Numbered from the stretch's first letter, positions 39,133 to 53,049 are shown. The stretch: 64,000 bases of DNA from Minisyncoccia bacterium (GCA_049997855.1 JBEKSG010000001.1:58059-122058); one strand, 5' to 3'. Program-made: numbers and translations. Notes: generated by a model not told the origin, from the letters alone.

Positions 39133-39485
39133 TTTTTTGGGTTGCGGGCTGGGAAAACTCAAAAAAGAAAAGCCCGACTTGCAAAGACGGGGTAGTTTGG
39201 GGCATCAGCCAATATTTGACTGAGTTCTTTCCTTCAAGCGATTGGCGGCTCGTTTCCCGAATTCCTTTACGAGAAACAAGGGGTCCACTGCGGATGGTTC
39301 TTCGGGCAACATTTCGAAATACTGGTTCGTTGTCGCCCGAGCCGAGGACCTGATACTAAGCATTGCGAGACATGCCGCGAGGGCGCTCTGTACAACAAAG
39401 GGCATCGAAGTCTCCTCCTCTACAATCTAAAACCAATTATAAACATTGCCGCTGAATTTTAGATTAATTTTACGCGGTGCTATTT

Positions 39486-40115
39486 TTATTCTTCCAAATT
39501 CCTTACAGAATCGGCGTTGAGCGTCGGCTCCTGCGCGACGGTGTCGAGCATGCCGGTAATAGTCACATAATCTCCTATAAGTACATTCTGAGGAGAAATC
39601 TCTTGGCCGTCACGGTTGAGGAAACGTGTTCCGAAATTGTGCGTTTCGTAACTGCTTGCATCAGTGAGTACTATCCACCTAAAATCCGTCGAGCCCCATG
39701 CCGCACTGACGGTTATAGTCGTTCCATTTACCGCCACCACTCGTGCACTACGCAGGAGAGTGAGCCCGTTGTTGGCAATATGCATCTCACTGGGAAAGAG
39801 CGGGACGCCTGTGGCGACTGCGGGCGCAGACATCGCGGTACCTTGAGCCGCGGCTTTGTGCGGTGGAAGCGAAAAAAGGAAAACAGAGAACGAAAAAACA
39901 AAAAAGAAAATAGCGCCTACAAACAGAAAAGTTCCGAAGAGTTTGACATACGACATATCCACCATCGCCTTAAACCAGCGGCGGATTACTCCACTCCTCG
40001 CTCGGGGAAAGTCAAAGGAGTGCGGATCAAAGGTCTGCACCTCCGCAAAAAAGGCCGTAGGGGGAGCGTATAAACGCATGTTCTTAACTATAATTATATC
40101 CCGTGAAGCCATCAT
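39486..40115 (-). CDS. Hypothetical membrane-anchored protein
   Basis: ORF track; one TM helix. Confidence 0.3.
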   Translation of the reverse strand: MMASRDIIIVKNMRLYAPPTAFFAEVQTFDPHSFDFPRARSGVIRRWFKAMVDMSYVKLFGTFLFVGAIFFFVFSFSVFLFSLPPHKAAAQGTAMSAPAVATGVPLFPSEMHIANNGLTLLRSARVVAVNGTTITVSAAWGSTDFRWIVLTDASSYETHNFGTRFLNRDGQEISPQNVLIGDYVTITGMLDTVAQEPTLNADSVRNLEE

Positions 40116-40381
40116 GAATCACCGATGAATCCATTTGATTCATTTGGACTTCATGAGAAAGAACTTGGCGTGAAAGTTGGATATAAGATTTCTGTTACTA
40201 AACTCGCCACTGCCACAAAGAAGCCTGGCATAGAAGGGAAACGAGCGCGTCTTGCGGAGACTATCAAGAGCTTTCATCAAATTCATTGGGTAACTATATC
40301 AAAGATGAAAAAACACCCAAGGAAAAAATTCCTTGGGTGTTGATCTGCTCGGATGATCGCTCCTGAAACCTGCTTATTTAT

Positions 40382-40690
40382 TCAGTACGGATCATGCTCG
40401 TCGCGCACTTCCTGCACGACATAATATACGAGTGCAAAGAGGCTTATCATGATTCCGCCGAGCGCATACGAAATTGCGCTCAATGACAGATGCCACGGAT
40501 GTATGACCCACGTGTCCTGGTGATACCAAAAATGATCTCCGGCAACAGACCACAACGCAATGCCCGCGATGATTACTCCCACCATGCATGCGAAGTATAC
40601 GACTGCCCGGACCCACCACGACCAATTTTCATGCATCAGCTTCAACGGCACCGTGACGGGCCATCCAGCTACGAAGAAGATAATTTTCAC
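40382..40690 (-). CDS. Hypothetical small membrane protein (3 TM)
   Basis: ORF track. Confidence 0.3.
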   Translation of the reverse strand: MKIIFFVAGWPVTVPLKLMHENWSWWVRAVVYFACMVGVIIAGIALWSVAGDHFWYHQDTWVIHPWHLSLSAISYALGGIMISLFALVYYVVQEVRDEHDPY

Positions 40691-40794
40691 GGTTTTTCCC
40701 CCTGTGTTTTGTGCTAACTGTGCTACAGTATACAGATATATTTTAGAAAGTCAAGTATTAGTAAAGGGATGCCCAACACAGAGGCTGGGCAAGT

Positions 40795-41034
40795 TCATCG
40801 CGGCAGACCTTTATTTGCTTTGAAGATTCCGCCGCCGGAATGTAGACCGAACGAGGTGACAAGGCCGGGTATTGCTTGCGGCATGTTCTTATTACGCCAA
40901 CAAGCGTCGCAGTAAGCAGTCCCTTTTCTGACTGATTTTCCGCAGCGTACTCCTGTGGCGTAGTCTAATCCGTTACATGTTGCCTCATTGGTTTTTTCGG
41001 TAGGCTGCTTTTGAGCACTGATCGATATTGCCAT
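40795..41034 (-). CDS. Small Cys-rich zinc-ribbon-like protein
   Basis: CNGLDYATGVRCGKSVRKGTAYCDACW contains 4 Cys in a C..C...C..C arrangement. Confidence 0.35.
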   Translation of the reverse strand: MAISISAQKQPTEKTNEATCNGLDYATGVRCGKSVRKGTAYCDACWRNKNMPQAIPGLVTSFGLHSGGGIFKANKGLPR

Positions 41035-41215
41035 AGTACATCCTCCTACCCAAACTATATCATCGTTTCAGACCACCAGCTCAATGTATTAAAAAAGGGC
41101 CGCCCAAGAGGGGCGGCTTGAAACAACAGATCTTCCTGTTCGTGTGTTCGCGAACAACATGCTCCCATTGCTTGAGGCATGCCTCAAGCACGGCGGCGTC
41201 TTCGTGAAGAATCAT

Positions 41216-41869
41216 TCACATCTTCCAGCGTTCGGCGCGCTGGATCTTCAGCGCCCAGCAGACCTCCCGAACATTTTCACAGAGTCTCGTCTGTTGGTCG
41301 ACGATCTTATGAGTCGCCCGTTCATACAGAATATTGACGTAGTCCGGTTTGAATCTCAAAGCCCGGCCGATCGCAACGACATCCAGATGTAGCACGTCGC
41401 ACCCGATGAGGATGACTGCCTGCTGGGCAGCGGCGCATTTGGTGCTCTTCAGGGCGCCATCAACGATATGTTGCCATGACATACCGAATACTTGCGCGAC
41501 GCAGTCTCTTACGGCATAGATCGTCAGCTCAGCGTCACTGCTGCTTTTCATCTTCGGTGAGAATAGGCGCCAAATCTCCGTCGCACACGCCGACAGTTTC
41601 TTGTCGGCGGCGAGATGCGCCCTAGCATCCGCAATTTCCTTCCCCGAGCAGAACATGCTGTCTTGCAGAAAGCCATCCGCATCTTGCACAAACTTATGCG
41701 TACTCCCCAAGGCGAGCACCAATACTCGGGCATTCCAGCAATCCGACGAAGGATCGTCGACGGGTTCTTTGATCAGCTCGGGCGGAACTCCCATCCTACT
41801 CGAGACGATACCGGCTAAAGCCGCCAGTGTTTCCTCACGGCTTCTGTAGCCAACCTGCACATGTGCCAT
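41216..41869 (-). CDS. Hypothetical protein (start at MAHVQVGY)
   Basis: ORF track; no recognisable motif. Confidence 0.3.
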   Translation of the reverse strand: MAHVQVGYRSREETLAALAGIVSSRMGVPPELIKEPVDDPSSDCWNARVLVLALGSTHKFVQDADGFLQDSMFCSGKEIADARAHLAADKKLSACATEIWRLFSPKMKSSSDAELTIYAVRDCVAQVFGMSWQHIVDGALKSTKCAAAQQAVILIGCDVLHLDVVAIGRALRFKPDYVNILYERATHKIVDQQTRLCENVREVCWALKIQRAERWKM

Positions 41870-42093
41870 ATCTTTCTTTCTCCTGAGAGTTATGTATGGC
41901 CTTAAAGATCTCAAAACAGAACCGCACAATACTAAACCATACTATAGCACCCGGTACAATCGTACAATTATATCTTATACCACAAAAATCAATACTTGCA
42001 AATAGATTACAGCTGCATGAATCACCTACAAAGAGGAAGACCTTATTTGAGAGATGATACCGCTCCGCTCGAATAGTACAGGATTTAGTAAGC

Positions 42094-42125
42094 CAATTTA
42101 TCCCTGCGGCAGAAGCCGCAGGGAG
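42094..42125 (+). terminator. Hairpin CCCTGCGG-CAGAAG-CCGCAGGG followed by AGTTTTTGG
   Basis: 8-bp perfect stem; also may terminate the minus-strand membrane-protein operon. Confidence 0.4.
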
Positions 42126-42201
42126 TTTTTGGCTAAATGCTTAAACTGGTAACTTAACGATCCGAGACCCCCGCCGAGAATAAGGTCGCTCTCGCCGCAC
42201 C

Positions 42202-42360
42202 CTACTTTGAGGTAGGATTCAATGCGCCCCAGAATCCGACAACCGCAATGACTACGCCCAGAACTACGAGCGTCCACGTGAGCGTCATGCCCGTGAGACC
42301 TAAGAACGCCGCCACAATCACACAAAGCCCGAGCACCCCATTTGTCCAATCTTGCCACAT
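42202..42360 (-). CDS. Small 2-TM membrane protein (52 aa, start MWQDWTNG)
   Basis: ORF track 42202..42480, trimmed to the internal Met preceding the hydrophobic core. Confidence 0.3.
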   Translation of the reverse strand: MWQDWTNGVLGLCVIVAAFLGLTGMTLTWTLVVLGVVIAVVGFWGALNPTSK

Positions 42361-42542
42361 AGTATTTAGTATTAGTTGTTTTTGATAAAATGATGAAGCA
42401 AATCTCGGATGTGCCCCATGCGGTAAGTATATATCGGTTTTGGTGCTCTTTTGGAGCGAAGTGGAATAACGGGCTCCCACTGGCTGACAAGTTCAGAACC
42501 GCAGATTGGATACAGTTTGAGCGCGACCTACAGTTCAGTGGC

Positions 42543-43058
42543 CTACTTGACCTGCCGTTGTTTAGGCAGTTTTCTCTGACTTGAACGGACCAATACGTAA
42601 ATAGATACTGCCACGAGCGAGATGCCGACCGGCGGAAGCACATACAAAACGAATGCTGCGAAGTTGTAGAGGATAGTCGCACTCGTGTTCAGGACAGTAA
42701 ATAGGGTTGGCACGATGTACTGATACGACAAGAACATCAAGAAGAGCCAGACGACCGCCTTGATAAAGTTGTACAGCTCCCATGAGCCGAAACCCTTTAC
42801 GACGACGTCGTGCAACACTTTGTAAAAACGTGCTTCGTAGAGTAGGAAGCCAAGCGTGCAAAAAGTAAAAGCGCTGTAAAACGCTCGGTAGAAAAACTCG
42901 GGCTCCGACAGCGGCTTCACCTCTACCCACTGGAACTTCACACGAAGCGCGAAGCGCCAAAGTAGCAGCACCAAAAGCAAAACAGTGTACGGCACTGCCG
43001 AGCTAAAAACCTCTTTTGTTTGAGCAACGAGAACGGTTCGATACCACGGCTTTTTCAT
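42543..43058 (-). CDS. Hypothetical 4-TM membrane protein (start MKKPWYRT)
   Basis: ORF track trimmed. Confidence 0.4.
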   Translation of the reverse strand: MKKPWYRTVLVAQTKEVFSSAVPYTVLLLVLLLWRFALRVKFQWVEVKPLSEPEFFYRAFYSAFTFCTLGFLLYEARFYKVLHDVVVKGFGSWELYNFIKAVVWLFLMFLSYQYIVPTLFTVLNTSATILYNFAAFVLYVLPPVGISLVAVSIYVLVRSSQRKLPKQRQVK

Positions 43059-43075
43059 GTTGGATAAGTTCAGAA

Positions 43076-43315
43076 CTACTTCGGCCAAGCTAGGTAAATC
43101 TGGATACCCGACGCCATCAGCGAAAGCAGGATTGCCACTATCGCGATGCCTAACGACCAACGTGCATAGCGTTTCGACGAAGCTGAGTTTTCTACTGCCA
43201 GTCGTCGCTGTAGCTCGTGCGCCGCAAGAGCGCCGTACCTCGGGTCCCAGTTGTCCATTCTCTGGAACAGCTCTTCTTCGGTGTAGCTCGGCAACGGTTT
43301 ATCAAAGTTAGCCAT
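43076..43315 (-). CDS. Small tail-anchored membrane protein (cytoplasmic N-domain, C-terminal TM)
   Basis: ORF track. Confidence 0.4.
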   Translation of the reverse strand: MANFDKPLPSYTEEELFQRMDNWDPRYGALAAHELQRRLAVENSASSKRYARWSLGIAIVAILLSLMASGIQIYLAWPK

Positions 43316-43321
43316 ACAGGT

Positions 43322-44062
43322 TTACTCTTTTCTTGCGCCGTCTGCCTGCTCTTTTTCCAAGACAGCTCTTTCAGCCGAAAGCTCTTTATCGGTAAAGCGT
43401 AAATCGTTTTTGTACCAGATGCGGCTTCCTTTGCCGAACCCATAAAATCTCTTCATCTTGAGTGTGTCGGTTTTATTCGCATCGTTCAAGAGCAAACGAA
43501 CCTTCACGCGAAGGTCGGTTAGGTCCTCGATGACTTTCGGATACTGGTCGTCTATGGTGCCAAGAGCTTCATTGAAAAAACTGATGACGTTCTCTGCGAG
43601 TTTACCGCCCCCGCTCATAATGGTCCTTTTGAAGGCCTGATACTCGTTGTCTATCATCCGCAAGTGATGGTCAAAACCCTTGAGTTTTCTGATGATGACA
43701 TACACCTCGTTTACCAACTCCACGTTGTAGCTCTTGAAAAAGTCCATCGAAGGAAAGTCGTAAAACTGGAAGTTCTTTGGGAAAATGGCTCCCGGCGTTT
43801 TCAAAACATCCAAAAACTCGTTGGTTGTCCGTGCATCGTAGGCGGTTATGTTCAACCACTCAAGTAAGTAAATCTCTATCTGGCGTAGAAACTCTTTGTG
43901 CTCCTTGTTTGCGGCATAGATTTTTTCGTATCGGATTATCAGGTAAGGCACGATGACTGAAACCAACAAGGCGACGCTGCTTATCAAGACCGGCAAAACG
44001 TCTTTCCAAAAGTCGAACGACCCTCCGGTTCCTATTTGGTGGAAGTAGTGATGGGGATACAT
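43322..44062 (-). CDS. Hypothetical protein with N-terminal TM helix and about 200-aa cytoplasmic domain
   Basis: ORF track; no recognisable motif. Confidence 0.4.
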   Translation of the reverse strand: MYPHHYFHQIGTGGSFDFWKDVLPVLISSVALLVSVIVPYLIIRYEKIYAANKEHKEFLRQIEIYLLEWLNITAYDARTTNEFLDVLKTPGAIFPKNFQFYDFPSMDFFKSYNVELVNEVYVIIRKLKGFDHHLRMIDNEYQAFKRTIMSGGGKLAENVISFFNEALGTIDDQYPKVIEDLTDLRVKVRLLLNDANKTDTLKMKRFYGFGKGSRIWYKNDLRFTDKELSAERAVLEKEQADGARKE

Positions 44063-44074
44063 TCGCGTTCAGTA

Positions 44075-44326
44075 TTAGATGCGACCACGAAGAGCACTCA
44101 CGAGAGCAATCAGGTTTTGCAGCTTTCCTTCCGCGTTATCTTCGTTGAAGTTCTTGATAATGCCTTGCACCCTCGTAAGCAATGCGACGGGGTCCGCAGG
44201 CCGCGGTTCTTTTTTTGGTTTTGTGCTTTTTTCTTTTGCTGCTCTTGGCGGCGCTGCTACCATCCCCGCCTCGGTAAGAAGGGCTTGAACTTTCTTGAGC
44301 GTTTCGAGTGCTTTTTCGGCGTCCAT
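44075..44326 (-). CDS. Hypothetical small protein, Lys/Pro-rich middle
   Basis: ORF track. Confidence 0.3.
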   Translation of the reverse strand: MDAEKALETLKKVQALLTEAGMVAAPPRAAKEKSTKPKKEPRPADPVALLTRVQGIIKNFNEDNAEGKLQNLIALVSALRGRI

Positions 44327-44362
44327 TGTCCTGTAGTGTAATGTAAACTAAAGTAAAGGGCA

Positions 44363-45490
44363 ATGGAACCTCTACAGATACTCGAACGCTACTTCAACTC
44401 CTTTATCGGGTCCGAAGACCCGAAGCAGTTTTTTATGGGCCTCAAGGACTATCTCGACTATGGCGACGCGGTGCCAGAGTTTGACCTCATTACGACGCAG
44501 GTTTCAGCCATGCCAAAGGAGCTGATGGAACGGTACGAAAAACAACATAACGAAGCACTCTCCAAGATAAAAGAGGCGCACAAGAAAATAGCCAAGTACG
44601 TCGCCAAAAACAAAGTTGAGATACCAGTCGTTCTGAACGCTCTCAAACAGTACGATAGTTTCGAACAAAAACGCTCGACTAGCAGCTGGCCTCTTGCGTA
44701 CACCTTGCACGATGAGTTGCATGACGCAATCGAGTTCCTCTACCGGACCCCCGAGCACAAAGAGTTCGCCGAGAAGTTCATTGAGTTTTCCGACCCCACA
44801 AAGGCGCACGCGCGGCACTACCTACCCATCAAAGAGCTGGACGACTTTCTCGAAACGAAAAAGGAGTTTGAACGCCAGTATGAAAATGAGTTATGGGGTG
44901 CACAGCAGCACTTGTACGAGCTTTGTAAAATCGTTCGCGAAGGACATGCGATGGGCAAAGAAGTTATTGCTCGAGCACAGAGGAAAGAGCCCGGCGCAGT
45001 GTTCGACTGGATGAACTTCAGCGTGATTATGAGCGAGTGGATGAAAATCGAAGAAGGCCGCCCCGAGCGCGACCCTGTGTTCTTCAAACCGAAAGAAGTA
45101 CGGCCAAAGGCGCAGCGCTTTCACTTGTATGTTTTGTCCCGCTTCGCAGCTGCGCACGCAGCTCTTGCCGAGGTAAAGCAAGAGAAGCCGCTCTCCTTCG
45201 ATGAGAACGAGGCAGTTTTGTGGGTCAAGAACAAACCCTTTCCTATCCGTCGGGTATCGGACCAGTACGACTTGCTCCGGGTCATTTTTGCTGACCCAGC
45301 AGAGGTCGGTAAAGAGTGGTTTTTTGATGAGATAGCAGAGAAAGTAGACCCAGCACGCTCAAACGAACGGCTCAAGAAGTACTACAACGCCGCGTATCAG
45401 ATAAGTAAGAAACTCGCCGAAAAGGGACTTCCGGGCTTCTTTATTACGAAGAGACACTCTGCACGTATCGGTTCGACCTACTTGTCTTAG
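44363..45490 (+). CDS. Hypothetical cytoplasmic protein (375 aa)
   Basis: ORF track; no recognisable motif. Confidence 0.4.
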   Translation: MEPLQILERYFNSFIGSEDPKQFFMGLKDYLDYGDAVPEFDLITTQVSAMPKELMERYEKQHNEALSKIKEAHKKIAKYVAKNKVEIPVVLNALKQYDSFEQKRSTSSWPLAYTLHDELHDAIEFLYRTPEHKEFAEKFIEFSDPTKAHARHYLPIKELDDFLETKKEFERQYENELWGAQQHLYELCKIVREGHAMGKEVIARAQRKEPGAVFDWMNFSVIMSEWMKIEEGRPERDPVFFKPKEVRPKAQRFHLYVLSRFAAAHAALAEVKQEKPLSFDENEAVLWVKNKPFPIRRVSDQYDLLRVIFADPAEVGKEWFFDEIAEKVDPARSNERLKKYYNAAYQISKKLAEKGLPGFFITKRHSARIGSTYLS

Positions 45491-45714
45491 ATGTCTTAGA
45501 TTTTATCTAGGCCACACCAAGATACCCATTGTCTACGCTTAGTGCGTGGACGCTCAAAAAGGACAACCCGATAAACAGACCGAGGATACCGAGCTGATGC
45601 AGCGGTTTTTCGGCGACTTCGAAGCACGACGCAACATCGTCGGACTTTACGACCTGCTCTACAAAATCGACCGGCGCGTCAATCCAGACCTTTACCAGCA
45701 TAAAGAACCCGACC

Positions 45715-46836
45715 ATGGTTGATACCGTCATACTCACGCTGCCGCTCGAAAAAGCGCTCTTCCTCGACTTGAAGGCAAGCGGCGTTGAGCCATGGGACCT
45801 TCAAGCGCGAACCAAGGCCTACGAGAAGTTCGTCCGCAATCCTTCGCGCCGCGATGCCGAGAGCGGGCTGTACTTCCCGCGTCTTACCGGCTACAAGCGC
45901 AAGAACGGCAAGCTCACATGGCAAAAGAGCATGAAGATAGAGTTTTCCGCTCCGAAACTCATCTACAAAAACAATCTCGAAGAGCTGGCCGATAGCGACT
46001 TCGAAAATGTCGTGGACGCGCTCATGGACCGGATGCAGCAGATGGGCGTCGTCATCAAACGGCATGACTTGTGCAATGCCGAGGTGCGCTCGGTTCACTA
46101 CTCCAAAAACATCGAGCTAAAAGACGGTTACACGGCGCAGTACGTTATCGGCGAACTCGGCAAGATAAACCTCAACAAACGCTTCGACCTCACGCGTGCG
46201 CGTTTTATGAACGATGGGCAGAGCTTGTACCTCTACACCATCGCGCACTCGTTCGTTTTGTATGACAAGGTCGCCGACCTCGGCAAAGACGCGAAGCGAG
46301 CAATCGACAGAGAGCAGACACCGCAGCAGTTGAACTTGTTCAAACAGCTCGACAAGAAAAAAGAGATACTGCGCCTCGAGGTACGCTTGAGCCAGAAGCA
46401 GAAGATGAACTCACTCTTCAAGAAACTCGGGTTCGCAGAAAATCCTACCTTCCGCGACGTGTTCTCAAAAGCAAAGAGCAAGAAGGTCCTCGGGCACTAC
46501 TGGGAAACGATGATAGCCGGACACAGCGTCTCGCTCTTCGCACCATCGCTCACGCCGAAAGACCTGCTCAAACAGGTGCTCATCGCACGCAAGGGAGCGA
46601 AAGGCAAGACGGCAATCTACCTTGCGGGGTTGCTGCTGTTCGCTCGGGACGGCAACGGCCAACGCGAGCTGCGTTCGATACTCTGCAAAAAGAACGACGA
46701 CCGGACGTGGTACCGCATTGCGGCAGACGTGAAGAGCATCGCGACCGACTTGAGAAAAGTGCATCCGCGCGACTGGTACGACCAAGTTCAAAAGGCACTC
46801 ACGAGTTATCAGCGGTATCGCATGGACAGCAGTTAG
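45715..46836 (+). CDS. Hypothetical protein, possibly Rep_trans-like rolling-circle replication initiator
   Basis: Weak resemblance to RepC-type motifs (VLYDKVADLGKDAKR vs RIYNKKQERK; LRLEVRLSQKQ vs WRVEIELKRD). Not verified. Confidence 0.3.
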   Translation: MVDTVILTLPLEKALFLDLKASGVEPWDLQARTKAYEKFVRNPSRRDAESGLYFPRLTGYKRKNGKLTWQKSMKIEFSAPKLIYKNNLEELADSDFENVVDALMDRMQQMGVVIKRHDLCNAEVRSVHYSKNIELKDGYTAQYVIGELGKINLNKRFDLTRARFMNDGQSLYLYTIAHSFVLYDKVADLGKDAKRAIDREQTPQQLNLFKQLDKKKEILRLEVRLSQKQKMNSLFKKLGFAENPTFRDVFSKAKSKKVLGHYWETMIAGHSVSLFAPSLTPKDLLKQVLIARKGAKGKTAIYLAGLLLFARDGNGQRELRSILCKKNDDRTWYRIAADVKSIATDLRKVHPRDWYDQVQKALTSYQRYRMDSS

Positions 46837-47027
46837 AGGTCGTGCGTGTTCGAAACTATCAAATAAAAAATAACAACATGAAAACAGCAGTACAGAAGTT
46901 CGTTGAAGAGATGACAAAGGCCTTTGATGCCTACTACCGACAACGCCTTTCCGAGAGCGTAAAGCGCGGCCTCCGAGCCAAGAAGTTATCAACTCGGGCA
47001 AAGTTGCCCTGTAAACCAATGTAAAGT

Positions 47028-47216
47028 ATGATTATAGGCATGCAGCAGAGGGAGTTCTACAACCCGCAGGAACTGGCCGACAAGCTAGTCGTAAACGTCA
47101 TGACTATTTATCGCTACATCAAAGCGAAGAAACTCAAGGCGCACAAAATCGGAAAAGAGTTTCGCATCGAAAAGTCCGAGTTTGATGCGTTTCTGAAACG
47201 CACCAGTACGAAATAA
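47028..47216 (+). CDS. Excisionase/Xis-family helix-turn-helix DNA-binding protein
   Basis: PQELADKLVVNVMTIYRYIKAKKLKAHKIGKEFRI HTH pattern. Confidence 0.55.
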   Translation: MIIGMQQREFYNPQELADKLVVNVMTIYRYIKAKKLKAHKIGKEFRIEKSEFDAFLKRTSTK

Positions 47217-47220
47217 AACC

Positions 47221-49026
47221 ATGAACGAAAAGGAACTCATACAGCAAAGAGACAATCAGATACTCCGGCTCCAAAAGGAAGTCGAGAAACTGAAGAAGTC
47301 CATAAAAACACAACGGTATGGCATCGTCTGGGCCGATGTACCCGAGGCCTTCGAGGACGATGTAGAGAACAAGCTACCCGTACTCGAAGAGGTGCCAAAA
47401 CTCGCAATAAAGAGCAAGGACGACAAGCCGACGCACATACTCATCGAAGGCGACAACTACCACGCGCTCACGTGCCTCAACTACACGCACAAGGGCAAAG
47501 TGGACGTGATTTACATAGACCCGCCCTACAACACGGGCTCGGACGGCTTCCGCTACAGGGACAAGCGCATCCTCGATAAGTATCCTGACGGTACAGACGT
47601 GCCACAGGACCATCCGTTCAGACATAGCTACTGGTTGTCGTTTATGAAAAAACGCCTCGAACTCGCAAAGGACTTGCTCAAAGATGACGGCGTTATTTTC
47701 ATCAGCATTGACATAAATGAGATGGCCCAACTCAAGCTACTCGCCGATGAGGTCTTTGAAAACAACCTGATTAGCTTGATTACAGTAAAGGTAAAGGACC
47801 CTGCTGGTGTTGGCCAACAGAGCTTTATCTTCGATGTAGCCGAGTACGTCTTGATGTATGCAAAAAACACAGCGACGTTCAAAGCCAAGCACCAAGACCT
47901 TCCACTGGATTACGAAGAGTTGAATGAACAGTACGGGAGCTATAACAAAGTAGTGCTTGATTTTGGGAAGCCGAAGCTCGTAAAAGAGATTACGCGGCAA
48001 AATGTTGGTGCGATAAAAATCTATCAATGTCAGGACGCAGAAATTGGAAGGACGACGAACTTCACTTTCAAGGAGTACATCAAGAAGCGCGACACCATTT
48101 TTGCTGACTACAATCCAAGCGGCGGGATGATACTCGCCATCAGAGACCAGATACCGAAGAAGGGTCTGGCTTACATAGAATACGTCCCCACGAAAGGTAG
48201 AAATGCAGGGCAGATGACAAAGGGCTACTTTTTGAACGGCAGAATACTCGCGTGGCTCTCTACTGTCGCCAAGTACGAGAACGGTGTTTTGCGTAAACAG
48301 ACAAAAATGAGTAACGTCTGGAATGTTGCCAACGCCTCTCTTCATTTGGAAGGCAATGTTGATTTTACAAACGGAAAGAAACCCTTGGAGCTAGTAGAAA
48401 AGCTCATAGGAATGTTCAACATCCCGAACGGTCTGGTGCTCGACTTCTTCGCTGGGTCAGGCACGACAGGAGAAGCTGTTATGTCCCTGAACGCGACAGA
48501 TGCCGGAAAGCGACAGTTCATTTTGATTACGAATAACGACGAAATTACGAATGGAAAGACACAAAAGATAATGTCGGACGTTTGCTATCCGCGCATAAAA
48601 AACAGTATCAAGGGTTACAGAAGTAGGAAGGGGCTGGGCAACTCAATCAAGTTCTACAAGACCAGTTTTGTCGGTAAACACAACATTCTCGATGCGGATG
48701 ACAAAGACAGGGTACAACTCGCACATCATGCAGGAGAGATGTTGAGCATCGCAGAAAATACGCTCGACGCGGTCGAGAAAACCGACCACTGGCAGGTCTT
48801 CGAGAGCCGCGAGCGCTTCACAGCCGTTTATTTCCGCGAGGAGTACGACAAACTGGATGCCTTCATCGCGATGGTCAAGAAGCTCAAGAAACCTGTAACG
48901 GTCTACGTCTTCAGCTGGGAAGACGACCCGTACATCGCGGACTTCGAGGACCACGGCAACATCACAGTCAAGACGATACCGGAGCCGATAGTTGAGATTT
49001 ACAAGCAAATCTACAACCTTGTATGA
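47221..49026 (+). CDS. mod: Type III restriction-modification N6-adenine DNA methyltransferase (Mod)
   Basis: Motif IV IDPPYNT, motif I LVLDFFAGSGTTGEA; followed by res with ATGA overlap. Confidence 0.8.
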   Translation: MNEKELIQQRDNQILRLQKEVEKLKKSIKTQRYGIVWADVPEAFEDDVENKLPVLEEVPKLAIKSKDDKPTHILIEGDNYHALTCLNYTHKGKVDVIYIDPPYNTGSDGFRYRDKRILDKYPDGTDVPQDHPFRHSYWLSFMKKRLELAKDLLKDDGVIFISIDINEMAQLKLLADEVFENNLISLITVKVKDPAGVGQQSFIFDVAEYVLMYAKNTATFKAKHQDLPLDYEELNEQYGSYNKVVLDFGKPKLVKEITRQNVGAIKIYQCQDAEIGRTTNFTFKEYIKKRDTIFADYNPSGGMILAIRDQIPKKGLAYIEYVPTKGRNAGQMTKGYFLNGRILAWLSTVAKYENGVLRKQTKMSNVWNVANASLHLEGNVDFTNGKKPLELVEKLIGMFNIPNGLVLDFFAGSGTTGEAVMSLNATDAGKRQFILITNNDEITNGKTQKIMSDVCYPRIKNSIKGYRSRKGLGNSIKFYKTSFVGKHNILDADDKDRVQLAHHAGEMLSIAENTLDAVEKTDHWQVFESRERFTAVYFREEYDKLDAFIAMVKKLKKPVTVYVFSWEDDPYIADFEDHGNITVKTIPEPIVEIYKQIYNLV

Positions 49027-51398
49027 ACCTCAACCCGCTCAAGTTCCAGAGAGATGGCGTAGATACACTCACAACGCGCTTCCTTGCACTATGGAAGAAG
49101 AAAGGCCGCCAGTTGCCACTAGTGCTCAAAGCCCCGACGGGTAGCGGCAAGACCTACGTTGCCGCGCTCTTCGTGCGTGGTTTGAACCACCTGCCACAGT
49201 GGGATGAGGATAAGGCGTTCATCTGGATTACTTTTAGCGACGACCTTGCAATGCAGAGCAGGGACAAGTTCCGCGCGTACTTCGAGAACACTCTCGAGAA
49301 TGGATTGCTCACGGTCCAAGACATCAACCGCGGCAAACTCAATCCGAATGACATCCTTTTCTTGAACTGGCAGAAGGTTGTGTCAGTCGCCGCAGAAAAC
49401 CGCACCTTGCGCCGTCCTGATGACGAAGAGATGCGCAAAGAAAGCGGCAAGTATTTTGAGGACGTGATTGACGCGACGAAGCGAGACGCCCGCGAGATTA
49501 TCCTCATCATAGACGAAGCACACACGCACGTTTCGACCGTACTTGCGCAGAAGATAATTGACTACATAGACCCGAAGGTCGTGCTCCACGTTTCTGCAAC
49601 GCCCGACCCGAGCATCATTGCTCAAGCGGCCGAGAACGACAGCTTCATAAAGCTCGACCGCGATGCAGTCGTGGCACAAGGGCTCATCAAAGAGAGTATC
49701 GTATCGCAGACGACCGATGACCTGAAAGGAATGGGCCGCAAAGACCTCGACGAAGTGCTACTTGAGCTTGGAATGGAAAAACGCGAAGAGATTGTGAGGG
49801 AGTATAAGAAGTTAGGCAAGGACGTGAACCCTCTGATGCTCATACAGCTTCCGAATGACGACAAGGACCTCATTGACGCTGGCGAACGCACAAAAGAAGA
49901 AGTTGTGATGTCGTATCTGCTCAAGCGTGGTATGAAGGAGCACAAGATAGGCCGTTGGTTCGACGGCAAGAAGGAAAATATGACGGGCATTACGGAAAAC
50001 GACAGCGATGTTGATTTTATGCTCTTCAAGCAAGCAGCGGGCACGGGCTGGGACTGTCCACGCGCCTCGGTCTTGGTCATGTTCCGCGAAGTTCGCTCCG
50101 ATAAGTTCTACACGCAGACAGTCGGTCGCATCCTGCGCATGCCGGAGCCGCAGTTGAAGGATAACTACAAGGACAGCCCGCTTCTGCGTCGCGGTTATCT
50201 CTACACGAACTACAAGCGCGAGCAGGTAAAGGTGCCCGACGAAGATGAGAAGAACAAAGCACAAACGCAAGCTGCGTTCATCAAAGATGGTATCAAGAAC
50301 ATTACGCTTCAGTCTGACTACATCTCGCGCGTGGATTATGGCGACATACCGAGGTCGTGGACGTTTCAAGAGAACTTCCGCAACTCGATGAATGTCTACT
50401 TCAAAATCGGCAAAGATGACATTCTCGGGAAGGCAGAGAAGAAGCTCAAAGACGCGCGTCTCGACCTAGATGATACTCTCTTGAACTCTGTCGTCGCGAA
50501 CGCGCAGTTCGAGGACTTCGACCAGCTGTCGCTTGAGTTCGCGAAGCAAGGCACAGACGTGTCGCTCGAGATGTCGGTAAGTGATGTCGAAAAAACCTTC
50601 AACTACCTTTGCTATCAGCTGCTCAAAGAGCAACAGGATGAGCAAGCAAAATACTCCAACGTTGCACGTTCGTGGAGCGTCCTCAAGTCGGCTATTCGTA
50701 TCTGGTTCAAGGGCGTGCTTGGCGACGACAGCACCTACTACTACCGCGTGTTCGTGAAGGACATACAGAAAGGCCCCGAGAGCGTTCTACGCCCTGCGAT
50801 TACGAAAGCCCTTCGCGACTTCAAGCCGATAGCGCGTAAGCTCGTCGAGGAAAAGAAGAAGGAAGCCGAGACGAAGGAGGCCCCGACCTTCTCAATCCAA
50901 AGGGAGTACACCTACACCGACGACTACGAGGCAGTGCCACAAAAACTCTGCGCCCTCGACAAGTTCTTTGTGCTTCGCACCTACAGCGGCAAGGCAAACG
51001 AGACGAAGTTCGCATCCTATCTCGATAAGAAGGGCGGCAAAATCGCGTGGTGGTTCAAGAACGGCAATCAGGGCAAAGACTACTTTGCAGTACGCTACAT
51101 AAACTCATCAACGAAAGGAGAAGAGCTTTTCTACCCCGATTGGATAATCCTCTTCAAGGACGGGACTATCGGCATTTTCGATACAAAGAAAGGTCGCACG
51201 CTCACTGACCTCGAGACGGCAGATAAGGCCGCCGCGCTCCAGAAGAAGCTCAAGGAGTTCGGCAAGAAGTACGTCGGGGGCATCGTCCAAGAAGAAGCGG
51301 GTGTCTGGTATTACAATGATAGACCAAACTACAGCTTCAAGGATGGGCAGTCGGTCAACGATAGTAAGGACTGGAAGCCGTTTGAAAGTCTATTTTAG
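49023..51398 (+). CDS. res: Type III restriction endonuclease subunit (Res; SF2 helicase plus C-terminal PD-(D/E)xK nuclease)
   Basis: Walker A KAPTGSGKT, DEAH box IIDEAHTHV, motif VI QTVGRILR, C-terminal YPDWIIL...IGIFDTKKG nuclease motif. Confidence 0.8.
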   Translation: MNLNPLKFQRDGVDTLTTRFLALWKKKGRQLPLVLKAPTGSGKTYVAALFVRGLNHLPQWDEDKAFIWITFSDDLAMQSRDKFRAYFENTLENGLLTVQDINRGKLNPNDILFLNWQKVVSVAAENRTLRRPDDEEMRKESGKYFEDVIDATKRDAREIILIIDEAHTHVSTVLAQKIIDYIDPKVVLHVSATPDPSIIAQAAENDSFIKLDRDAVVAQGLIKESIVSQTTDDLKGMGRKDLDEVLLELGMEKREEIVREYKKLGKDVNPLMLIQLPNDDKDLIDAGERTKEEVVMSYLLKRGMKEHKIGRWFDGKKENMTGITENDSDVDFMLFKQAAGTGWDCPRASVLVMFREVRSDKFYTQTVGRILRMPEPQLKDNYKDSPLLRRGYLYTNYKREQVKVPDEDEKNKAQTQAAFIKDGIKNITLQSDYISRVDYGDIPRSWTFQENFRNSMNVYFKIGKDDILGKAEKKLKDARLDLDDTLLNSVVANAQFEDFDQLSLEFAKQGTDVSLEMSVSDVEKTFNYLCYQLLKEQQDEQAKYSNVARSWSVLKSAIRIWFKGVLGDDSTYYYRVFVKDIQKGPESVLRPAITKALRDFKPIARKLVEEKKKEAETKEAPTFSIQREYTYTDDYEAVPQKLCALDKFFVLRTYSGKANETKFASYLDKKGGKIAWWFKNGNQGKDYFAVRYINSSTKGEELFYPDWIILFKDGTIGIFDTKKGRTLTDLETADKAAALQKKLKEFGKKYVGGIVQEEAGVWYYNDRPNYSFKDGQSVNDSKDWKPFESLF

Positions 51399-51400
51399 CT

Positions 51401-52927
51401 ATGAAAGCAGTTGAGGTATCACGAGTATCGACCGAAGAACAAAAGGATGCGGGCAACTCGCTTCCGGCTCAAAGCGAACGCATAAAAAACTACTGCAAGC
51501 GCAAGGACTTCGACATAGCTGCGTCGTTCAGCTTCGATGAGAGCGCCTACAAGACCAAACGCGATGAGTTCGACAAACTGCTCACATTCGTTGAAGAAGC
51601 CATCAAAAAAGAGAAGCTGGCCGTTTGTTTCGATAAAGTGGACCGGCTTTCGCGTAGCGTTTTTGACAAGCGTGTTGCTCGACTGTACGAACTTGCCATT
51701 GCCGACAAGATAGAGCTGCACTTCGTCTCGGACGGGCAGGTCATAAACGCTCAGATGTCGGCTGTCGAGAAGTTCCAGTTCGGCATGAGCTTGGGCCTTG
51801 CAAAGTACTACTCGGACGCTATCAGCGACAACGTAAAGCGAGCGTTCGAGCAGAAGCGCCGGAAGGGCGAATGGACCGGCCCTGCGCCCTTGGGCTATCT
51901 CAACGTGGCTCTCGACGCAGAAAAGCGGCTTCGTAAGGACATCATTGTCGACCCCGAACGAGCACACCTCATCGAGCGCCTTTTCCTGCTGTACGCGACC
52001 GGCAACTACTCAATCACGACAGTGCATGAAGAGATAACACGCCTCGGGCTTCGTGGCCGCGAAGGAAACGTGTTGGCCCGCAGCAACATCGAGTTCACTC
52101 TCAAGAACCCTTTCTATTACGGTTTCGCACGACCACGCAAAGGTGCTCCGTATCCACACAAGTACAAGACGATAATCTCGCGTGAGCTTTTCGACCGCGT
52201 ACAGTCGGTTTTTTACAGCCGCCACAAAGCAACTTCGAAGCCGCTGTCCGACCTCTTTATCTTCAAAGGGCTTTTGCACTGCGACCACTGCGGCTGCGTC
52301 ATGTCGCCAGAGATAAAGAAGGGCCGTTTTATCTACTACTCCTGCACGAACGCCAAAAGGACCTGCAAACGCGTGTATGTGCGCGAGGAAGAGCTTCTGA
52401 AGCCCGTACAGGACGTTTTCAAGGCCTTTGAGAAGATACCGGCCGACGTTGAGAAGCGGCTTTTGAAGGAACTGCGCGACCTCAACGAAAGCGAGGTTGA
52501 GTACAACAAGAAAGAGCTGGTCCGTATCCGAGCCGAGTACGACCGCGTACAGAACCTCATCGACGGCTACATGGACATGCTCGCCGACAAGAGTATTACC
52601 AAGGATGACTATGACAAAAAACTGGAAAAGCTAAAAGACCGGCAGTACCGGTTGAACATCGAAGCGGAAGAACATACGAAAGCCGACCACGACTACAAAC
52701 TGACCATCTCCCACGTGTTTTCTATGTCGCGCCGCATGGGCGCCATCTTCGAGAGTTCGGAAGTGCCCGAGAAAAGGGCTATTTTGAACTTCTTACTTCA
52801 GAACCCGAAGGTATCAGACAAAAAGCTAGTGTTTACAATGGCAAAACCGTTTGATGCCGTACTCGAACTAGCTAACTGTCCAACTGGGCTCCGCGACCAG
52901 GACTCGAACCTGGAACCAACTCCTTAA
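51401..52927 (+). CDS. Large serine recombinase (integrase)
   Basis: N-terminal resolvase domain with catalytic RVSTEEQ, recombinase domain, zinc ribbon HCDHCGC...YYSCTN, coiled-coil; the 3' end overlaps tRNA-Asn. Confidence 0.8.
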   Translation: MKAVEVSRVSTEEQKDAGNSLPAQSERIKNYCKRKDFDIAASFSFDESAYKTKRDEFDKLLTFVEEAIKKEKLAVCFDKVDRLSRSVFDKRVARLYELAIADKIELHFVSDGQVINAQMSAVEKFQFGMSLGLAKYYSDAISDNVKRAFEQKRRKGEWTGPAPLGYLNVALDAEKRLRKDIIVDPERAHLIERLFLLYATGNYSITTVHEEITRLGLRGREGNVLARSNIEFTLKNPFYYGFARPRKGAPYPHKYKTIISRELFDRVQSVFYSRHKATSKPLSDLFIFKGLLHCDHCGCVMSPEIKKGRFIYYSCTNAKRTCKRVYVREEELLKPVQDVFKAFEKIPADVEKRLLKELRDLNESEVEYNKKELVRIRAEYDRVQNLIDGYMDMLADKSITKDDYDKKLEKLKDRQYRLNIEAEEHTKADHDYKLTISHVFSMSRRMGAIFESSEVPEKRAILNFLLQNPKVSDKKLVFTMAKPFDAVLELANCPTGLRDQDSNLEPTP

Positions 52928-52960
52928 CAGGGAGCTGCTCTACCATTGAGCTATCGCGGA
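52889..52960 (-). tRNA. tRNA-Asn (anticodon GUU)
   Basis: Manual fold: acceptor TCCGCGA/TCGCGGA, D-arm GCTC-AATGGTA-GAGC, anticodon arm GCTCC-CTGTTAA-GGAGT (GTT), T-arm CCAGG-TTCGAGT-CCTGG, discriminator G; CCA not encoded. Confidence 0.75.
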
Positions 52961-53049
52961 ATGTAAACAAACCTTAATACTATACATCTTTTTTCTTAAA
53001 AATCTAACCCTTTATTATATTATCTAGTCCCCTGGGGTATAATAAAAAT

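What the first reader, a model, noticed from the sequence alone, without database searches (positions are those of the whole stretch)
39150..52960. Integrative defence island at tRNA-Asn: serine recombinase, type III R-M, and a block of unknown genes
A large serine recombinase gene abuts and overlaps the 3' end of tRNA-Asn(GUU). Upstream lie an Xis-like HTH gene, a type III Mod/Res pair with intact catalytic motifs, a possible Rep_trans initiator and about 8 genes with no recognisable domains, 4 of them small membrane proteins. Composition and gene style differ from the flanking housekeeping genes. Elements of this kind are where new anti-phage systems are usually found. The left att site could not be located by eye.
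Basis: partly seen in the sequence, partly recalled or inferred. Interest (0 to 1): 0.75.

Follow-up and report, generated by a model that had tools for sequence, protein, structure and literature searches.

The report
Integrated R-M-carrying plasmid-like element, CPR bacterium
This is a 10.4-kb mobile DNA circle, inserted at the end of a tRNA-Asn gene of an uncultured candidate-phyla-radiation (CPR) bacterium, that carries a restriction-modification system and whose integrase gene runs across its own attachment site, so that insertion swaps the enzyme's tail.

Summary
There is a large serine recombinase (LSR) that overlaps tRNA-Asn, an HTH_17 gene, an intact type III Mod/Res pair and a Rep_trans-like protein. 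The boundaries and the emphasis need correcting.

- **Boundaries.** Comparison with three related copies in very different hosts places the element at 42,473-52,892 (10,415 bp). It is flanked by a 5-bp repeat, GCTCC, which matches tRNA positions 70-74. The stretch 39,150-42,472 lies outside the element.
- **Family.** It belongs to a large family of 5.5-11 kb elements in Patescibacteria (the CPR). The backbone is a Rep_trans/G2P-like initiator, an HTH_17 gene and the integrase. One cargo slot between HTH and integrase is either empty or holds R-M systems of many types.
- **Free circles.** Two free circular copies were found, of 8.86 kb and 9.41 kb.
- **Integrase tail.** The integrase ORF crosses attP. 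Free circles encode 525-547 aa with a conserved tail containing a DxFRTxxW motif. Integration moves the tail-coding segment to the far end of the element and leaves a truncated enzyme of about 497 aa plus a few tRNA-encoded residues.
- **Unknown genes.** They are mostly backbone genes or orphan genes. None is shown to be a new defence system.

I found no prior description. I rate it a new variant of a known kind.

The parts
42473..42477 (.). attL core GCTCC. To its left is host DNA (the original sequence downstream of tRNA-Asn). To its right is the element.
   Evidence: Homology among four elements in different hosts begins exactly here. The same 5-mer sits at the right junction.
42474..42584 (+). 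Detached 3' segment of the integrase gene. It encodes L-PLADKFRTADWIQFERDLQFSGLLDLPLFRQFSLT-stop and is joined in frame to the integrase in the circular form.
   Evidence: Joining the right end to the left end gives ORFs of 532/532/532/529 aa in four elements. Window versus L084 shows 7 synonymous and 1 non-synonymous codon differences in this frame, against about 1:8 in other frames. The same tail is contiguous with the integrase in 13 non-integrated contigs.
42543..43160 (-). ORF L, a multi-pass membrane protein (171-205 aa depending on the start codon). Variable left-arm gene.
   Evidence: 86% identical copy at the same place in L084. No Pfam, PHROG or PADLOC hit.
43076..43315 (-). ORF M, 79 aa, with a C-terminal transmembrane helix. 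Orphan.
   Evidence: Translation. No family hit. No homologue in the other loci.
43322..44062 (-). ORF N, 246 aa, with an N-terminal transmembrane helix. Orphan accessory gene.
   Evidence: No hit in four HMM libraries. Only 2 relatives among 1.84e9 representative proteins.
44075..44326 (-). ORF O, 83 aa, charged. Orphan.
44363..45490 (+). ORF P, 375 aa. A helical N-terminal region followed by a C-terminal OmpR/PhoB-type winged-helix DNA-binding domain. Semi-conserved backbone gene.
45483..45501 (.). Tandem TGTCTTAGAT repeats just after P. Candidate protein-binding site or origin element.
   Evidence: Conserved in L084 and L086. Function not tested.
45546..45722 (+). 58-aa ORF whose stop codon overlaps the start of Q (ATGGTTGA).
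   Evidence: Differences between elements are mostly synonymous in this frame (read from alignment A6).
45715..46836 (+). ORF Q, 373 aa. Rep_trans / G2P-like rolling-circle initiator, possibly also a relaxase. Core backbone gene.
47004..47032 (+). Promoter-like TTGCCC-N17-TATGAT with two TGTAAA repeats in the spacer, upstream of the HTH-cargo-integrase gene string.
   Evidence: Nearly invariant in five elements. Found independently by the consensus scan.
47028..47216 (+). HTH_17 (MerR/Xis-like) DNA-binding protein. Candidate regulator or recombination directionality factor.
   Evidence: Pfam 7e-13. PHROG 66. Always directly upstream of the cargo slot and integrase.
47221..49026 (+). Type III R-M methyltransferase (Mod). 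Cargo.
   Evidence: Only 28-31% identical to the Mod of the closest backbones, but 54-68% identical to Mod in distant backbones.
49023..51398 (+). Type III R-M restriction subunit (Res). Cargo.
   Evidence: Motifs read.
51401..52927 (+). Large serine recombinase, integrated (tail-less) form. Residues 1-496 come from the element. The last 12 (LRDQDSNLEPTP, from the core onward) are read from the complement of the tRNA.
52888..52892 (.). attR core GCTCC, the complement of tRNA-Asn positions 70-74.
   Evidence: To its right the tRNA acceptor stem is host-specific and covaries with its 5' partner.
52889..52960 (-). tRNA-Asn(GTT), the integration target. It remains intact.

Best explanation
Window 42,473-52,892 is one integrated copy of a small plasmid-like circular element that lives in Patescibacteria, the candidate phyla radiation (CPR).

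Shown:
1. The element has sharp ends marked by a 5-bp repeat, GCTCC, at the 3' end of tRNA-Asn.
2. The same backbone sits at the same site in hosts that are only distantly related, so it moves horizontally.
3. Relatives exist as free circles.
4. The integrase ORF runs across attP. In the circle it is 525-547 aa long and has a conserved tail containing DxFRTxxW. After integration the tail-coding 110 bp lies 10.4 kb away at attL. The expressed protein then ends after about 497 residues plus 2-11 residues read from the tRNA.
5. The interval between the HTH gene and the integrase is a cargo slot. It is either empty or holds an R-M system of almost any type. Here it holds a type III Mod/Res pair that was acquired independently of the backbone.

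Inferred:
- Q nicks a plus-strand origin and replicates the excised circle by the rolling-circle route. It may also serve as a relaxase.
- P and the HTH protein are DNA-binding regulators. The HTH protein is the best candidate for an excision factor.
- One promoter upstream of HTH drives HTH, Mod, Res and integrase as a unit.
- The R-M pair protects the host from phage and also makes loss of the element costly.
- The crossover dinucleotide is the CT inside GG-CT-CC.
- Loss of the tail changes integrase behaviour, for example by weakening re-integration or changing stability. Which way it works is unknown.
For: Boundaries and horizontal transfer:
- Loci L084, L086 and L088 carry P-Q-HTH-Mod-Res-Int next to tRNA-Asn, HPF, Fmt and Def.
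- Integrase identity to the window is 93/93/77% and Q identity is 87/85/82%, while Fmt identity is 51/38/47%.
- DNA homology starts at window 42465-42473 in all three and ends inside the tRNA.
- Host arms to the left of the core in L084 and L088 are hairpin-plus-T-run terminators for the tRNA.

Integrase gene spanning attP:
- Reconstructed ORFs are 532/532/532/529 aa.
- The synonymous substitution pattern favours the integrase frame.
- The tail is contiguous with the integrase in 13 contigs. In at least 30 integrated loci it is detached, on the same strand, 5.5-11.1 kb upstream.
- Native attP sites keep GCTCC and are colinear with the reconstruction.
- All 12 database proteins that cover at least 97% of the 532-aa form lie on contigs of 9.4 kb or less. 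Truncated forms lie on contigs of up to 1.3 Mb.

Free circles:
- L108 has a 123-bp terminal repeat.
- L171 and L172 come from two samples and are exact rotations of each other, with 0 mismatches in 9,406 bp.

Cargo slot:
- It is empty (5-27 bp) in 11 loci. Otherwise it holds 1-3 genes whose Pfam hits are R-M families: N6_N4_Mtase 14, ResIII 13, D12 methyltransferase 6, C5 methyltransferase 3, plus HpaII, HinP1I, AlwI, CfrBI, BsaWI, Eco57I, MmeI and Mrr.
- Cassette identity is decoupled from backbone identity.

Other components:
- Rep.
- P.
- Target: tRNA-Asn in at least 32 loci.
Against: - No excised or empty-site sequence from this particular organism was found. An exact-pattern scan for the reconstructed attP found nothing in either the viral or the metagenome collection.
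- Q fails Pfam's Rep_trans threshold (13.3 bits against 29.6), and a profile of the family finds no solved Rep by sequence. No origin or nick site was identified.
- The role of the tail is not tested. The attP arms themselves impose some DNA-level constraint on its first ~25 bp.
- No transfer machinery was identified, so how the element moves between cells is unknown.
- Whether the integrated, tail-less integrase is active is unknown.
Confidence: 0.8

Rival explanations
1. One reading: a 13.8-kb defence island (39,150-52,960) in which the unknown ORFs are candidate new anti-phage systems.
For: The island does carry a defence system, the type III R-M pair. Related elements carry Panacea-type toxin-antitoxin-like genes in the left arm. 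The orphan left-arm ORFs L-O cannot be excluded as defence or exclusion genes.
Against: - The conserved element ends at 42,473.
- The ORF at 39486-40115, together with the stretch up to about 40,279 (part of the small ORF at 40125-40343), is host sequence shared with L005.
- PADLOC finds nothing in the unknown ORFs.
- P and Q are backbone genes with DNA-binding and replication folds.
Confidence: 0.1
2. An integrated filamentous (inovirus-like) prophage. Such phages are small, use a G2P-type initiator and encode small membrane proteins that serve as coat proteins.
For: Q's fold matches Inoviridae G2P, and 3 of 34 members hit Phage_CRI. Several small transmembrane ORFs lie in the left arm. The size is 9-11 kb.
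Against: - No ORF in the window element, or among the ORFs scanned or annotated in the free circles, hits a Zot/pI morphogenesis ATPase or any PHROG structural family.
- The left arm is not conserved between elements: it holds L-O here, Panacea genes in L086, L088 and L170, and DUF2779 in L171.
- Q finds no match in 50,697 phage records.
Confidence: 0.05
3. An integrative mobilizable element (IME). In this reading Q is mainly a MobT-type relaxase that lets the excised circle ride a helper conjugation system, rather than a replication initiator.
For: MobT relaxases are Rep_trans relatives and can do both jobs in Tn916 and ICEBs1 (PMC5704250, read). Serine-recombinase IMEs with very short flanking repeats are known (same paper).
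Against: - No coupling protein or oriT was found in the element.
- No conjugation system was looked for in these hosts. I do not know of one described in this group, but that is my own knowledge and was not checked.
- Free circles assemble as separate contigs in two samples, which suggests maintenance as a replicon.
- This reading is compatible with the main explanation and does not exclude it.
Confidence: 0.2
4. The conserved 'tail' is conserved only as DNA, as the P' arm of attP bound by the integrase. The extended reading frame would then be incidental.
For: The first ~25 bp after the core must be recognised by the integrase and are nearly invariant.
Against: - Conservation runs for about 90 bp, well beyond a half-site.
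- Differences are concentrated at third codon positions, 7 synonymous to 1 non-synonymous.
- The stop codon falls at the same length in four elements.
- The peptide motif DxFRTxxW...LQFSG persists in integrases that are only 47-63% identical, where the DNA has diverged.
Confidence: 0.1

Closest known systems
Integrative and mobilizable elements of Firmicutes that pair a site-specific recombinase with a Rep_trans/MobT protein (reviewed in PMC5704250)
   Same: Small integrated elements with an integrase and a Rep_trans-related initiator/relaxase. They have very short flanking repeats when the integrase is a serine recombinase. Passenger genes include R-M and toxin-antitoxin modules.
   Different: - The host is Patescibacteria.
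- The target is the 3' end of a tRNA and the tRNA is preserved. According to that review, serine-recombinase IMEs usually disrupt dispensable genes.
- Q is too diverged to pass the Rep_trans model.
- There is no coupling protein.
- There is a single fixed cargo slot devoted to R-M.
- The integrase ORF crosses attP.
SSV-type tyrosine integrases of archaeal viruses and plasmids (PMC7253208, PMC8371274)
   Same: The attachment site lies inside the integrase ORF, so integration splits the gene and the two parts end up at opposite ends of the integrated element. The target is a tRNA gene.
   Different: - The enzyme family is unrelated (tyrosine, not serine).
- SSV-type integration separates the gene into two substantial fragments (PMC7253208). 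That this leaves no functional enzyme is my recollection.
- Here only the last ~35 residues are removed, and all catalytic and DNA-binding domains remain in one ORF.
Integration-dependent immunity of mycobacteriophages BPs and Brujita (PMC4557955, PMC3694055)
   Same: attP lies within the 3' part of a gene, so integration changes the C-terminus of the product. The phage uses this as a switch.
   Different: There the gene is the repressor and the recombinase is a tyrosine integrase. That the removed C-terminus is a degradation tag is my recollection of those studies. Here the gene is the serine integrase itself, and no degradation signal is evident.
Phage and element large serine integrases (phiC31, Bxb1, A118, TP901-1, CcrB, XisF)
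   Same: Same domain set: Resolvase, Recombinase and zinc ribbon with a helical insertion. Minimal att sites and a very short shared core.
   Different: - NCBIfam scores are far below every named equivalog (XisF 79 bits against 375, CcrB 75 against 900).
- No solved structure is found by sequence.
- The best matches in phage records are 35% and 32% identical, in two small unannotated human-faecal 'Bacteriophage sp.' records.
- I found no report of an LSR whose ORF spans attP.
R-M gene complexes as mobile units (the idea of Kobayashi and others, recalled from my own knowledge; one example, Zheng et al. 2016, is listed in the references of PMC5704250)
   Same: R-M systems linked to mobility genes and exchanged between genomes. 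They may stabilise their carrier by killing cells that lose them.
   Different: Here a defined replicon and integrase backbone offers one slot that accepts type II, IIG/IIL and III systems interchangeably, and it also occurs empty.

Membership tests
Large serine recombinase | N-terminal resolvase catalytic domain with the serine nucleophile in an R-x-S-T-x-x-Q context | tested here: met
   PF00239 at 1.5e-20. Residues 8-14 read RVSTEEQ.
Large serine recombinase | Recombinase domain plus a zinc-ribbon domain C-terminal to the catalytic domain | tested here: met
   PF07508 at 2.4e-10 and PF13408 at 7.2e-10. PHROG 95 'integrase' at 4e-74.
Large serine recombinase | Simple att sites with a very short identical core and no long direct repeats | tested here: met
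   A 5-bp GCTCC is shared by attL and attR in four elements. No longer repeat is present.
Large serine recombinase | Catalyses attP x attB recombination | not testable with these tools
   Needs enzyme assays. Indirect support comes from finding free circles and integrated copies of the same family.
Type III restriction-modification | Mod subunit: N6/N4 methyltransferase with DPPY and FxGxG motifs and type III family membership | tested here: met
   PF01555 at 2.9e-37. PADLOC MTase_III at 1.8e-67. IDPPYN and FFAGSGTTG are readable.
Type III restriction-modification | Res subunit: SF2 helicase motifs plus a C-terminal PD-(D/E)xK nuclease, encoded directly after mod | tested here: met
   PF04851 at 6e-18. 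REase_III at 1.8e-14, covering only part of the protein. The motifs APTGSGKT, DEAH, QTVGRILR and YPDW...FDTK are present. The mod stop and res start overlap at 49023-49026.
Type III restriction-modification | Restriction and methylation activity at a defined site | not testable with these tools
   Needs methylome data or enzyme assays.
Rep_trans rolling-circle initiators (PF02486; RepC/RepD/RepDE) | Passes the family's sequence model | tested here: not met
   The window protein scores 13.3 bits against a cut-off of 29.6. 10 of 34 homologues give weak hits, the best at 5e-4. A profile of the family finds no solved Rep.
Rep_trans rolling-circle initiators (PF02486; RepC/RepD/RepDE) | Shares the fold | tested here: met
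Rep_trans rolling-circle initiators (PF02486; RepC/RepD/RepDE) | Catalytic tyrosine and acidic metal ligands | tested here: inconclusive
   Y183-D184-K185 and R220-x-E222-x-R224 are invariant in 34 homologues. They resemble the RIYNK and RVEIEL motifs I recall from RepD, but I did not align them residue by residue to a solved Rep.
Rep_trans rolling-circle initiators (PF02486; RepC/RepD/RepDE) | A cognate double-strand origin with a nick site | not tested
   Only a candidate repeat (TGTCTTAGAT x2, 45483-45501) was noticed.
Integrative mobilizable element | Own integration/excision module but no complete conjugation machinery | tested here: met
   Integrase and HTH_17 are present. No conjugation genes were found in the element.
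Integrative mobilizable element | Relaxase and oriT used with a helper element | tested here: inconclusive
   Q could be a MobT-like relaxase by fold. No oriT or helper was identified.
SSV-type integrase arrangement | Attachment site inside the integrase ORF | tested here: met
SSV-type integrase arrangement | Tyrosine recombinase of the SSV family | tested here: not met
   The enzyme is a serine recombinase. This is therefore an analogy in how it works, not membership.
Inovirus prophage | Zot/pI-type assembly ATPase and coat protein genes conserved with the initiator | tested here: not met
   No such hit in any ORF of the window element or among the ORFs scanned or annotated in the free circles. 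The left arm is not conserved.

The most novel reading that the evidence does not exclude
The integrase's C-terminal tail is a built-in state sensor, and this would be the first case in serine integrases. Only the free circle makes the full-length enzyme. Once inserted, the element makes a tail-less enzyme with different activity, stability or directionality. This would give a one-protein switch between 'integrate' and 'stay or excise'. If so, the family would also be a natural, modular integrate-and-replicate vector for CPR bacteria, with a defined attP and a conserved tRNA-Asn attB.
Probability: 0.3. Interest if true: 0.8.

Novelty: new variant of a known kind. Interest (0 to 1): 0.62.

Why it matters
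**CPR biology.** To my knowledge, CPR/Patescibacteria make up a large share of bacterial diversity, are almost all uncultured, and have very few described mobile elements or genetic tools. None of that was checked here. This family is abundant: at least 1,813 integrase relatives and 783 Rep relatives. It crosses deep host boundaries and has a simple, fully specified anatomy of attP, attB, origin-protein candidate, promoter and cargo slot. It is therefore both a visible route for spreading R-M systems among these organisms and a plausible starting point for an integrative vector.

**Recombinase mechanism.** An ORF that crosses attP and loses a conserved tail on integration offers a natural experiment on how the C-terminal region affects directionality.

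**Original finding.** The result is sobering. The 'unknown block' is mostly the element's own maintenance genes, not a nest of new defence systems.

Tried and rejected
- **tRNA 3'-end repeat.** I searched the window for a repeat of the tRNA 3' end, allowing up to 3 mismatches and using local alignment. There is none. I dropped the idea that the element carries a copy of the tRNA 3' half. The tRNA body is host-specific.
- **Split tRNA-Asn in L004.** I first read it as a possible att remnant marking the crossover in the anticodon loop. Rfam shows it is a group I intron (71.7 bits), so I rejected that reading.
- **Exact attP pattern scans.** They found nothing in IMG/VR or in JGI metagenomes. Searching with the 532-aa protein instead found the free forms.
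- **Q in IMG/VR.** No relatives.
- **Q in PLSDB and INPHARED.** No match.
- **Dyad symmetry scan of attP.** No clear centre emerged, with at best 10-13 of 23 positions matching. The proposed CT crossover rests only on the short GTCC...GGAC and GG/CC symmetry read by eye.
- **Variant tails LRIVEDVRT.** I first counted L091, L111, L113 and L148 as free forms. L113 also has a canonical detached tail upstream and a second integrase downstream. It is therefore a tandem array, and I excluded these four from the free-form count.
- **Region 40,382-42,472 (ORFs H-K).** No family hits above threshold and no homologues in any fetched locus. I could not decide whether it is host DNA or the remnant of an older insertion.
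- **Composition.** It does not delimit the element.


Full report
**1. What is in the sequence**

ARAGORN finds one tRNA in the window, tRNA-Asn(GTT), at 52885-52961 on the minus strand. Rfam places it at 52889-52960.

- A 508-aa ORF at 51401-52927 on the plus strand has the three Pfam domains of a large serine recombinase. It overlaps the tRNA, and its TAA stop codon is the complement of the anticodon loop.
- Upstream on the same strand, almost without gaps, lie:
  - Res (49023-51398; ResIII, PADLOC REase_III);
  - Mod (47221-49026; PADLOC MTase_III 1.8e-67);
  - an HTH_17 gene (47028-47216).
- The catalytic motifs of Mod and Res can be read in the translations.
- Further upstream are ORFs without any family hit in Pfam, PHROGs, PADLOC or NCBIfam.

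**2. Host**

The flanks encode HPF, Fmt, Def, a cysteine desulfurase, MreB and other housekeeping proteins. The same contig is on record as JGI 3300037843 Ga0427918_0000214 (148.9 kb) and in Logan SRR12951267. NCBI labels it Minisyncoccia bacterium. The closest species representatives are Candidatus Adlerbacteria / Paceibacterota, which belong to the Patescibacteria or candidate phyla radiation (CPR).

**3. Boundaries**

No repeat of the tRNA 3' half exists in the window.

*Left limit from a close relative.* L005 has Fmt 82% identical to the window's.
- It has a different serine recombinase (27% identical) at the same tRNA.
- Next comes a distant Q homologue.
- About 4.7 kb beyond the tRNA, it has the homologue of window ORF 39486-40115 at 89% nucleotide identity.
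- Everything left of about 40,280 is therefore shared host sequence.

*Exact ends from three related copies.* Homologues of Q led to three loci in other genomes (L084, L086, L088). All have the string P-Q-HTH-Mod-Res-Int next to tRNA-Asn, HPF, Fmt and Def.

| Locus | Integrase identity to window | Q identity | Fmt (host) identity |
|---|---|---|---|
| L084 | 93% | 87% | 51% |
| L086 | 93% | 85% | 38% |
| L088 | 77% | 82% | 47% |

- The element is thus far more conserved than its hosts.
- DNA homology among the four starts within a few bases of window 42,473 and ends inside the tRNA.
- At both junctions all four have GCTCC: 42473-42477 and 52888-52892 in the window.
- To the right of the right-hand core, the tRNA acceptor stem differs between hosts and covaries with its 5' partner. 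The tRNA body is therefore host DNA.
- To the left of the left-hand core, L084 and L088 show a hairpin followed by a T-run on the tRNA strand. This is the tRNA's own terminator.
- The core corresponds to tRNA positions 70-74.
- The element is 10,415 bp here, and 9,856, 10,632 and 10,727 bp in the others.

**4. The integrase gene crosses attP**

Joining the right end to the left end, as in an excised circle, extends the integrase ORF.
- The integrated forms are 508/499/499/496 aa.
- The joined forms are 532/532/532/529 aa.
- The added tail is (P/R)L(A/T)DKFRTADWI(Q/L)FE..L.FSG.L.

*The tail is coding sequence.*
- Between the window and L084, codon differences in this frame are 7 synonymous to 1 non-synonymous.
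- In four of the five other frames the ratio is about 1:8; the remaining reverse frame shows 6:4.

*Metagenome scan.* A scan with the 532-aa protein returned 80 loci.
- In 13 contigs the tail is contiguous with the integrase (525-547 aa) and no tRNA follows.
- In at least 30 integrated loci the tail-coding segment lies on the same strand 5.5-11.1 kb upstream of the integrase end.
- Native attP sites keep GCTCC and are colinear with the reconstruction.

*Protein database.* All 12 relatives that cover at least 97% of the long form are on contigs of 9.4 kb or less. Forms covering about 93% are on contigs of up to 1.3 Mb.

*What follows the core in integrated copies.* The residues after the core depend on the host tRNA. 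They are 11 here (after the core leucine) and 2 in L084, L086 and L088, so they are unlikely to matter.

**5. Free circles**

- L108 (8,981 bp) has a 123-bp terminal repeat. It encodes a 280-aa ORF, Q, HTH_17, an HpaII-type methylase and endonuclease, and a 531-aa integrase.
- L171 and L172 come from two sequencing runs. Each is 9,436 bp with a 30-bp terminal repeat. They are exact rotations of each other, with 0 mismatches in 9,406 bp. They encode Q, HTH_17, an MmeI-like enzyme and a 537-aa integrase.

**6. Cargo slot**

In 48 loci that hold both HTH and integrase, the interval between them is 5-27 bp in 11 loci. Otherwise it holds 1-3 genes.
- Pfam assigns these genes almost entirely to R-M families of types II, IIG/IIL and III.
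- The window's Mod/Res are 54-68% / 61-65% identical to those of L104, L106 and L124, whose integrases are only 61-63% identical to the window's.
- They are 25-30% identical to those of L084 and L086, whose integrases are 93% identical.
- Cargo and backbone therefore have different histories.
- A promoter-like TTGCCC-N17-TATGAT with two TGTAAA repeats precedes HTH in all five elements compared.

**7. The unknown genes**

*Q (373 aa)*
- 783 homologues, all in Patescibacteria where a source names the organism.
- The AlphaFold model has pLDDT 86.6.
- Foldseek matches Inoviridae G2P.
- Sequence profiles give only sub-threshold Rep_trans and Phage_CRI hits.
- A YDK motif and an RxExR motif are invariant.

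*P (375 aa)*
- Only 16 homologues.

*Other ORFs*
- A 58-aa ORF (45546-45722) overlaps the start of Q and shows a coding substitution pattern.
- The left arm (L, M, N, O) is not conserved. L recurs only in L084.
- N has 2 relatives among 1.84e9 representatives.
- Other elements have Panacea-domain or DUF2779 genes in the left arm instead.

**8. How it most likely works**

*Shown:*
- site-specific insertion at the tRNA-Asn 3' end with a 5-bp core;
- horizontal spread;
- circular relatives;
- an integrase ORF that spans attP;
- an exchangeable R-M slot.

*Inferred:*
- rolling-circle replication of the circle by Q;
- regulation by P and the HTH protein, the latter possibly as an excision factor;
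- co-transcription of HTH, Mod, Res and Int;
- R-M acting both as host defence and as a stabiliser of the element;
- CT within GG-CT-CC as the crossover;
- a functional difference between the long and short integrase.

The route between cells is unknown.

**9. Comparison with known systems**

- It works like the Firmicute integrative mobilizable elements that combine a recombinase with a Rep_trans/MobT protein (PMC5704250).
- It works like SSV-type archaeal integrases in having att inside the integrase gene (PMC7253208).
- It works like BPs/Brujita integration-dependent immunity in using integration to change a protein's C-terminus (PMC4557955).
- It is a member of the large serine recombinase family and carries a bona fide type III R-M system.
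- It is not a member of the SSV family, because the enzyme class is wrong.
- Membership of Rep_trans is supported by fold only.
- Literature searches found no description of this family, and none of an LSR ORF spanning attP.
- Q has no match in PLSDB or INPHARED.
- The searchable library is incomplete, so prior description cannot be excluded.

**10. Verdict**

It is smaller than claimed, and its unknown genes are mainly maintenance genes. The interesting points are the family itself, its dedicated R-M slot, and the tail swap of the integrase.

Noticed in passing
L004:11733-11974: In the close relative DATKGU010000003 the tRNA-Asn gene is interrupted in the anticodon loop by a ~232-nt group I intron (Rfam RF00028, 71.7 bits, E 4e-18). 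ARAGORN therefore reports no tRNA there.
   Followed up: yes
L005:11821-13461; also L006, L024, L033, L036: Other serine recombinases, only 23-30% identical to the window's, sit at the same tRNA-Asn in related genomes, and their ORFs also read into the tRNA. L005's element also has a 25%-identical Q homologue. The site is a hotspot for a wider superfamily of Rep + LSR elements.
   Followed up: partly
L102, L107, L164 (tRNA-Trp); L127 (tRNA-Gln): Subclades of the same integrase family (59-64% identical) end at tRNA-Trp(CCA) or tRNA-Gln(TTG) instead of tRNA-Asn. This indicates target switching within the family.
   Followed up: no
L113:98-15266: Tandem array. One element's integrase is fused in frame to a different, tail-like peptide (LRILNEIRT...). 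A second cargo pair and a second integrase follow, while the first element's own tail lies 8 kb upstream. This suggests that a second element inserted into the first element's attR.
   Followed up: partly
L092, L093, L117, L119, L123, L126, L128, L130, L131, L145, L154, L155, L157: Many metagenome contigs start within 0-400 bp of the detached tail and, in several, end within about 100 bp after the tRNA. Assemblies therefore break at the att sites. This is what mixed occupied, empty and circular states in a population would produce.
   Followed up: no
window:40382-42472: Four minus-strand ORFs lie between the element's attL and the shared host genes: a 102-aa membrane ORF, a 79-aa ORF with CxxC pairs, a 237-aa ORF, and a 52-92-aa SPW-like membrane ORF. 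They have no homologue in any fetched locus. Whether this is host DNA or the remnant of an older insertion is undecided.
   Followed up: partly
window:40290-40345 and L005:16480-16520: A conserved hairpin terminator follows the small plus-strand ORF 40125-40343. Synteny with L005 ends just after it.
   Followed up: partly
L084:6972-7020; L088:6305-6345: Just outside attL, on the strand opposite to tRNA-Asn, both loci have a T-arm-like sequence (GTTCGAGTCCTAC / TTCGAATCCTAC) that neither ARAGORN nor Rfam calls as a gene.
   Followed up: partly
window:47004-47040: The conserved promoter's -10 element ends 7 bases before the ATG at 47040, which some gene calls use as the HTH start (58 aa). The HTH mRNA may therefore be leaderless.
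   Followed up: no
phage records MT837677.1 (6,409 bp) and MT836653.1 (9,264 bp): Two small unannotated 'Bacteriophage sp.' records from human faeces encode the closest integrase relatives in the phage collection, at 35% and 32% identity over nearly the full length. They may be similar small elements rather than phages.
   Followed up: no
L094:592-2440: A second, unrelated serine recombinase (27% identical) lies next to tRNA-Arg(TCT), 8 kb from the tRNA-Asn element in the same contig.
   Followed up: no
L086:1619-6408: Just outside that element's left end lie genes with faint TraG/TrwB and strong AAA/ClpB-like hits. They might belong to another mobile element.
   Followed up: no
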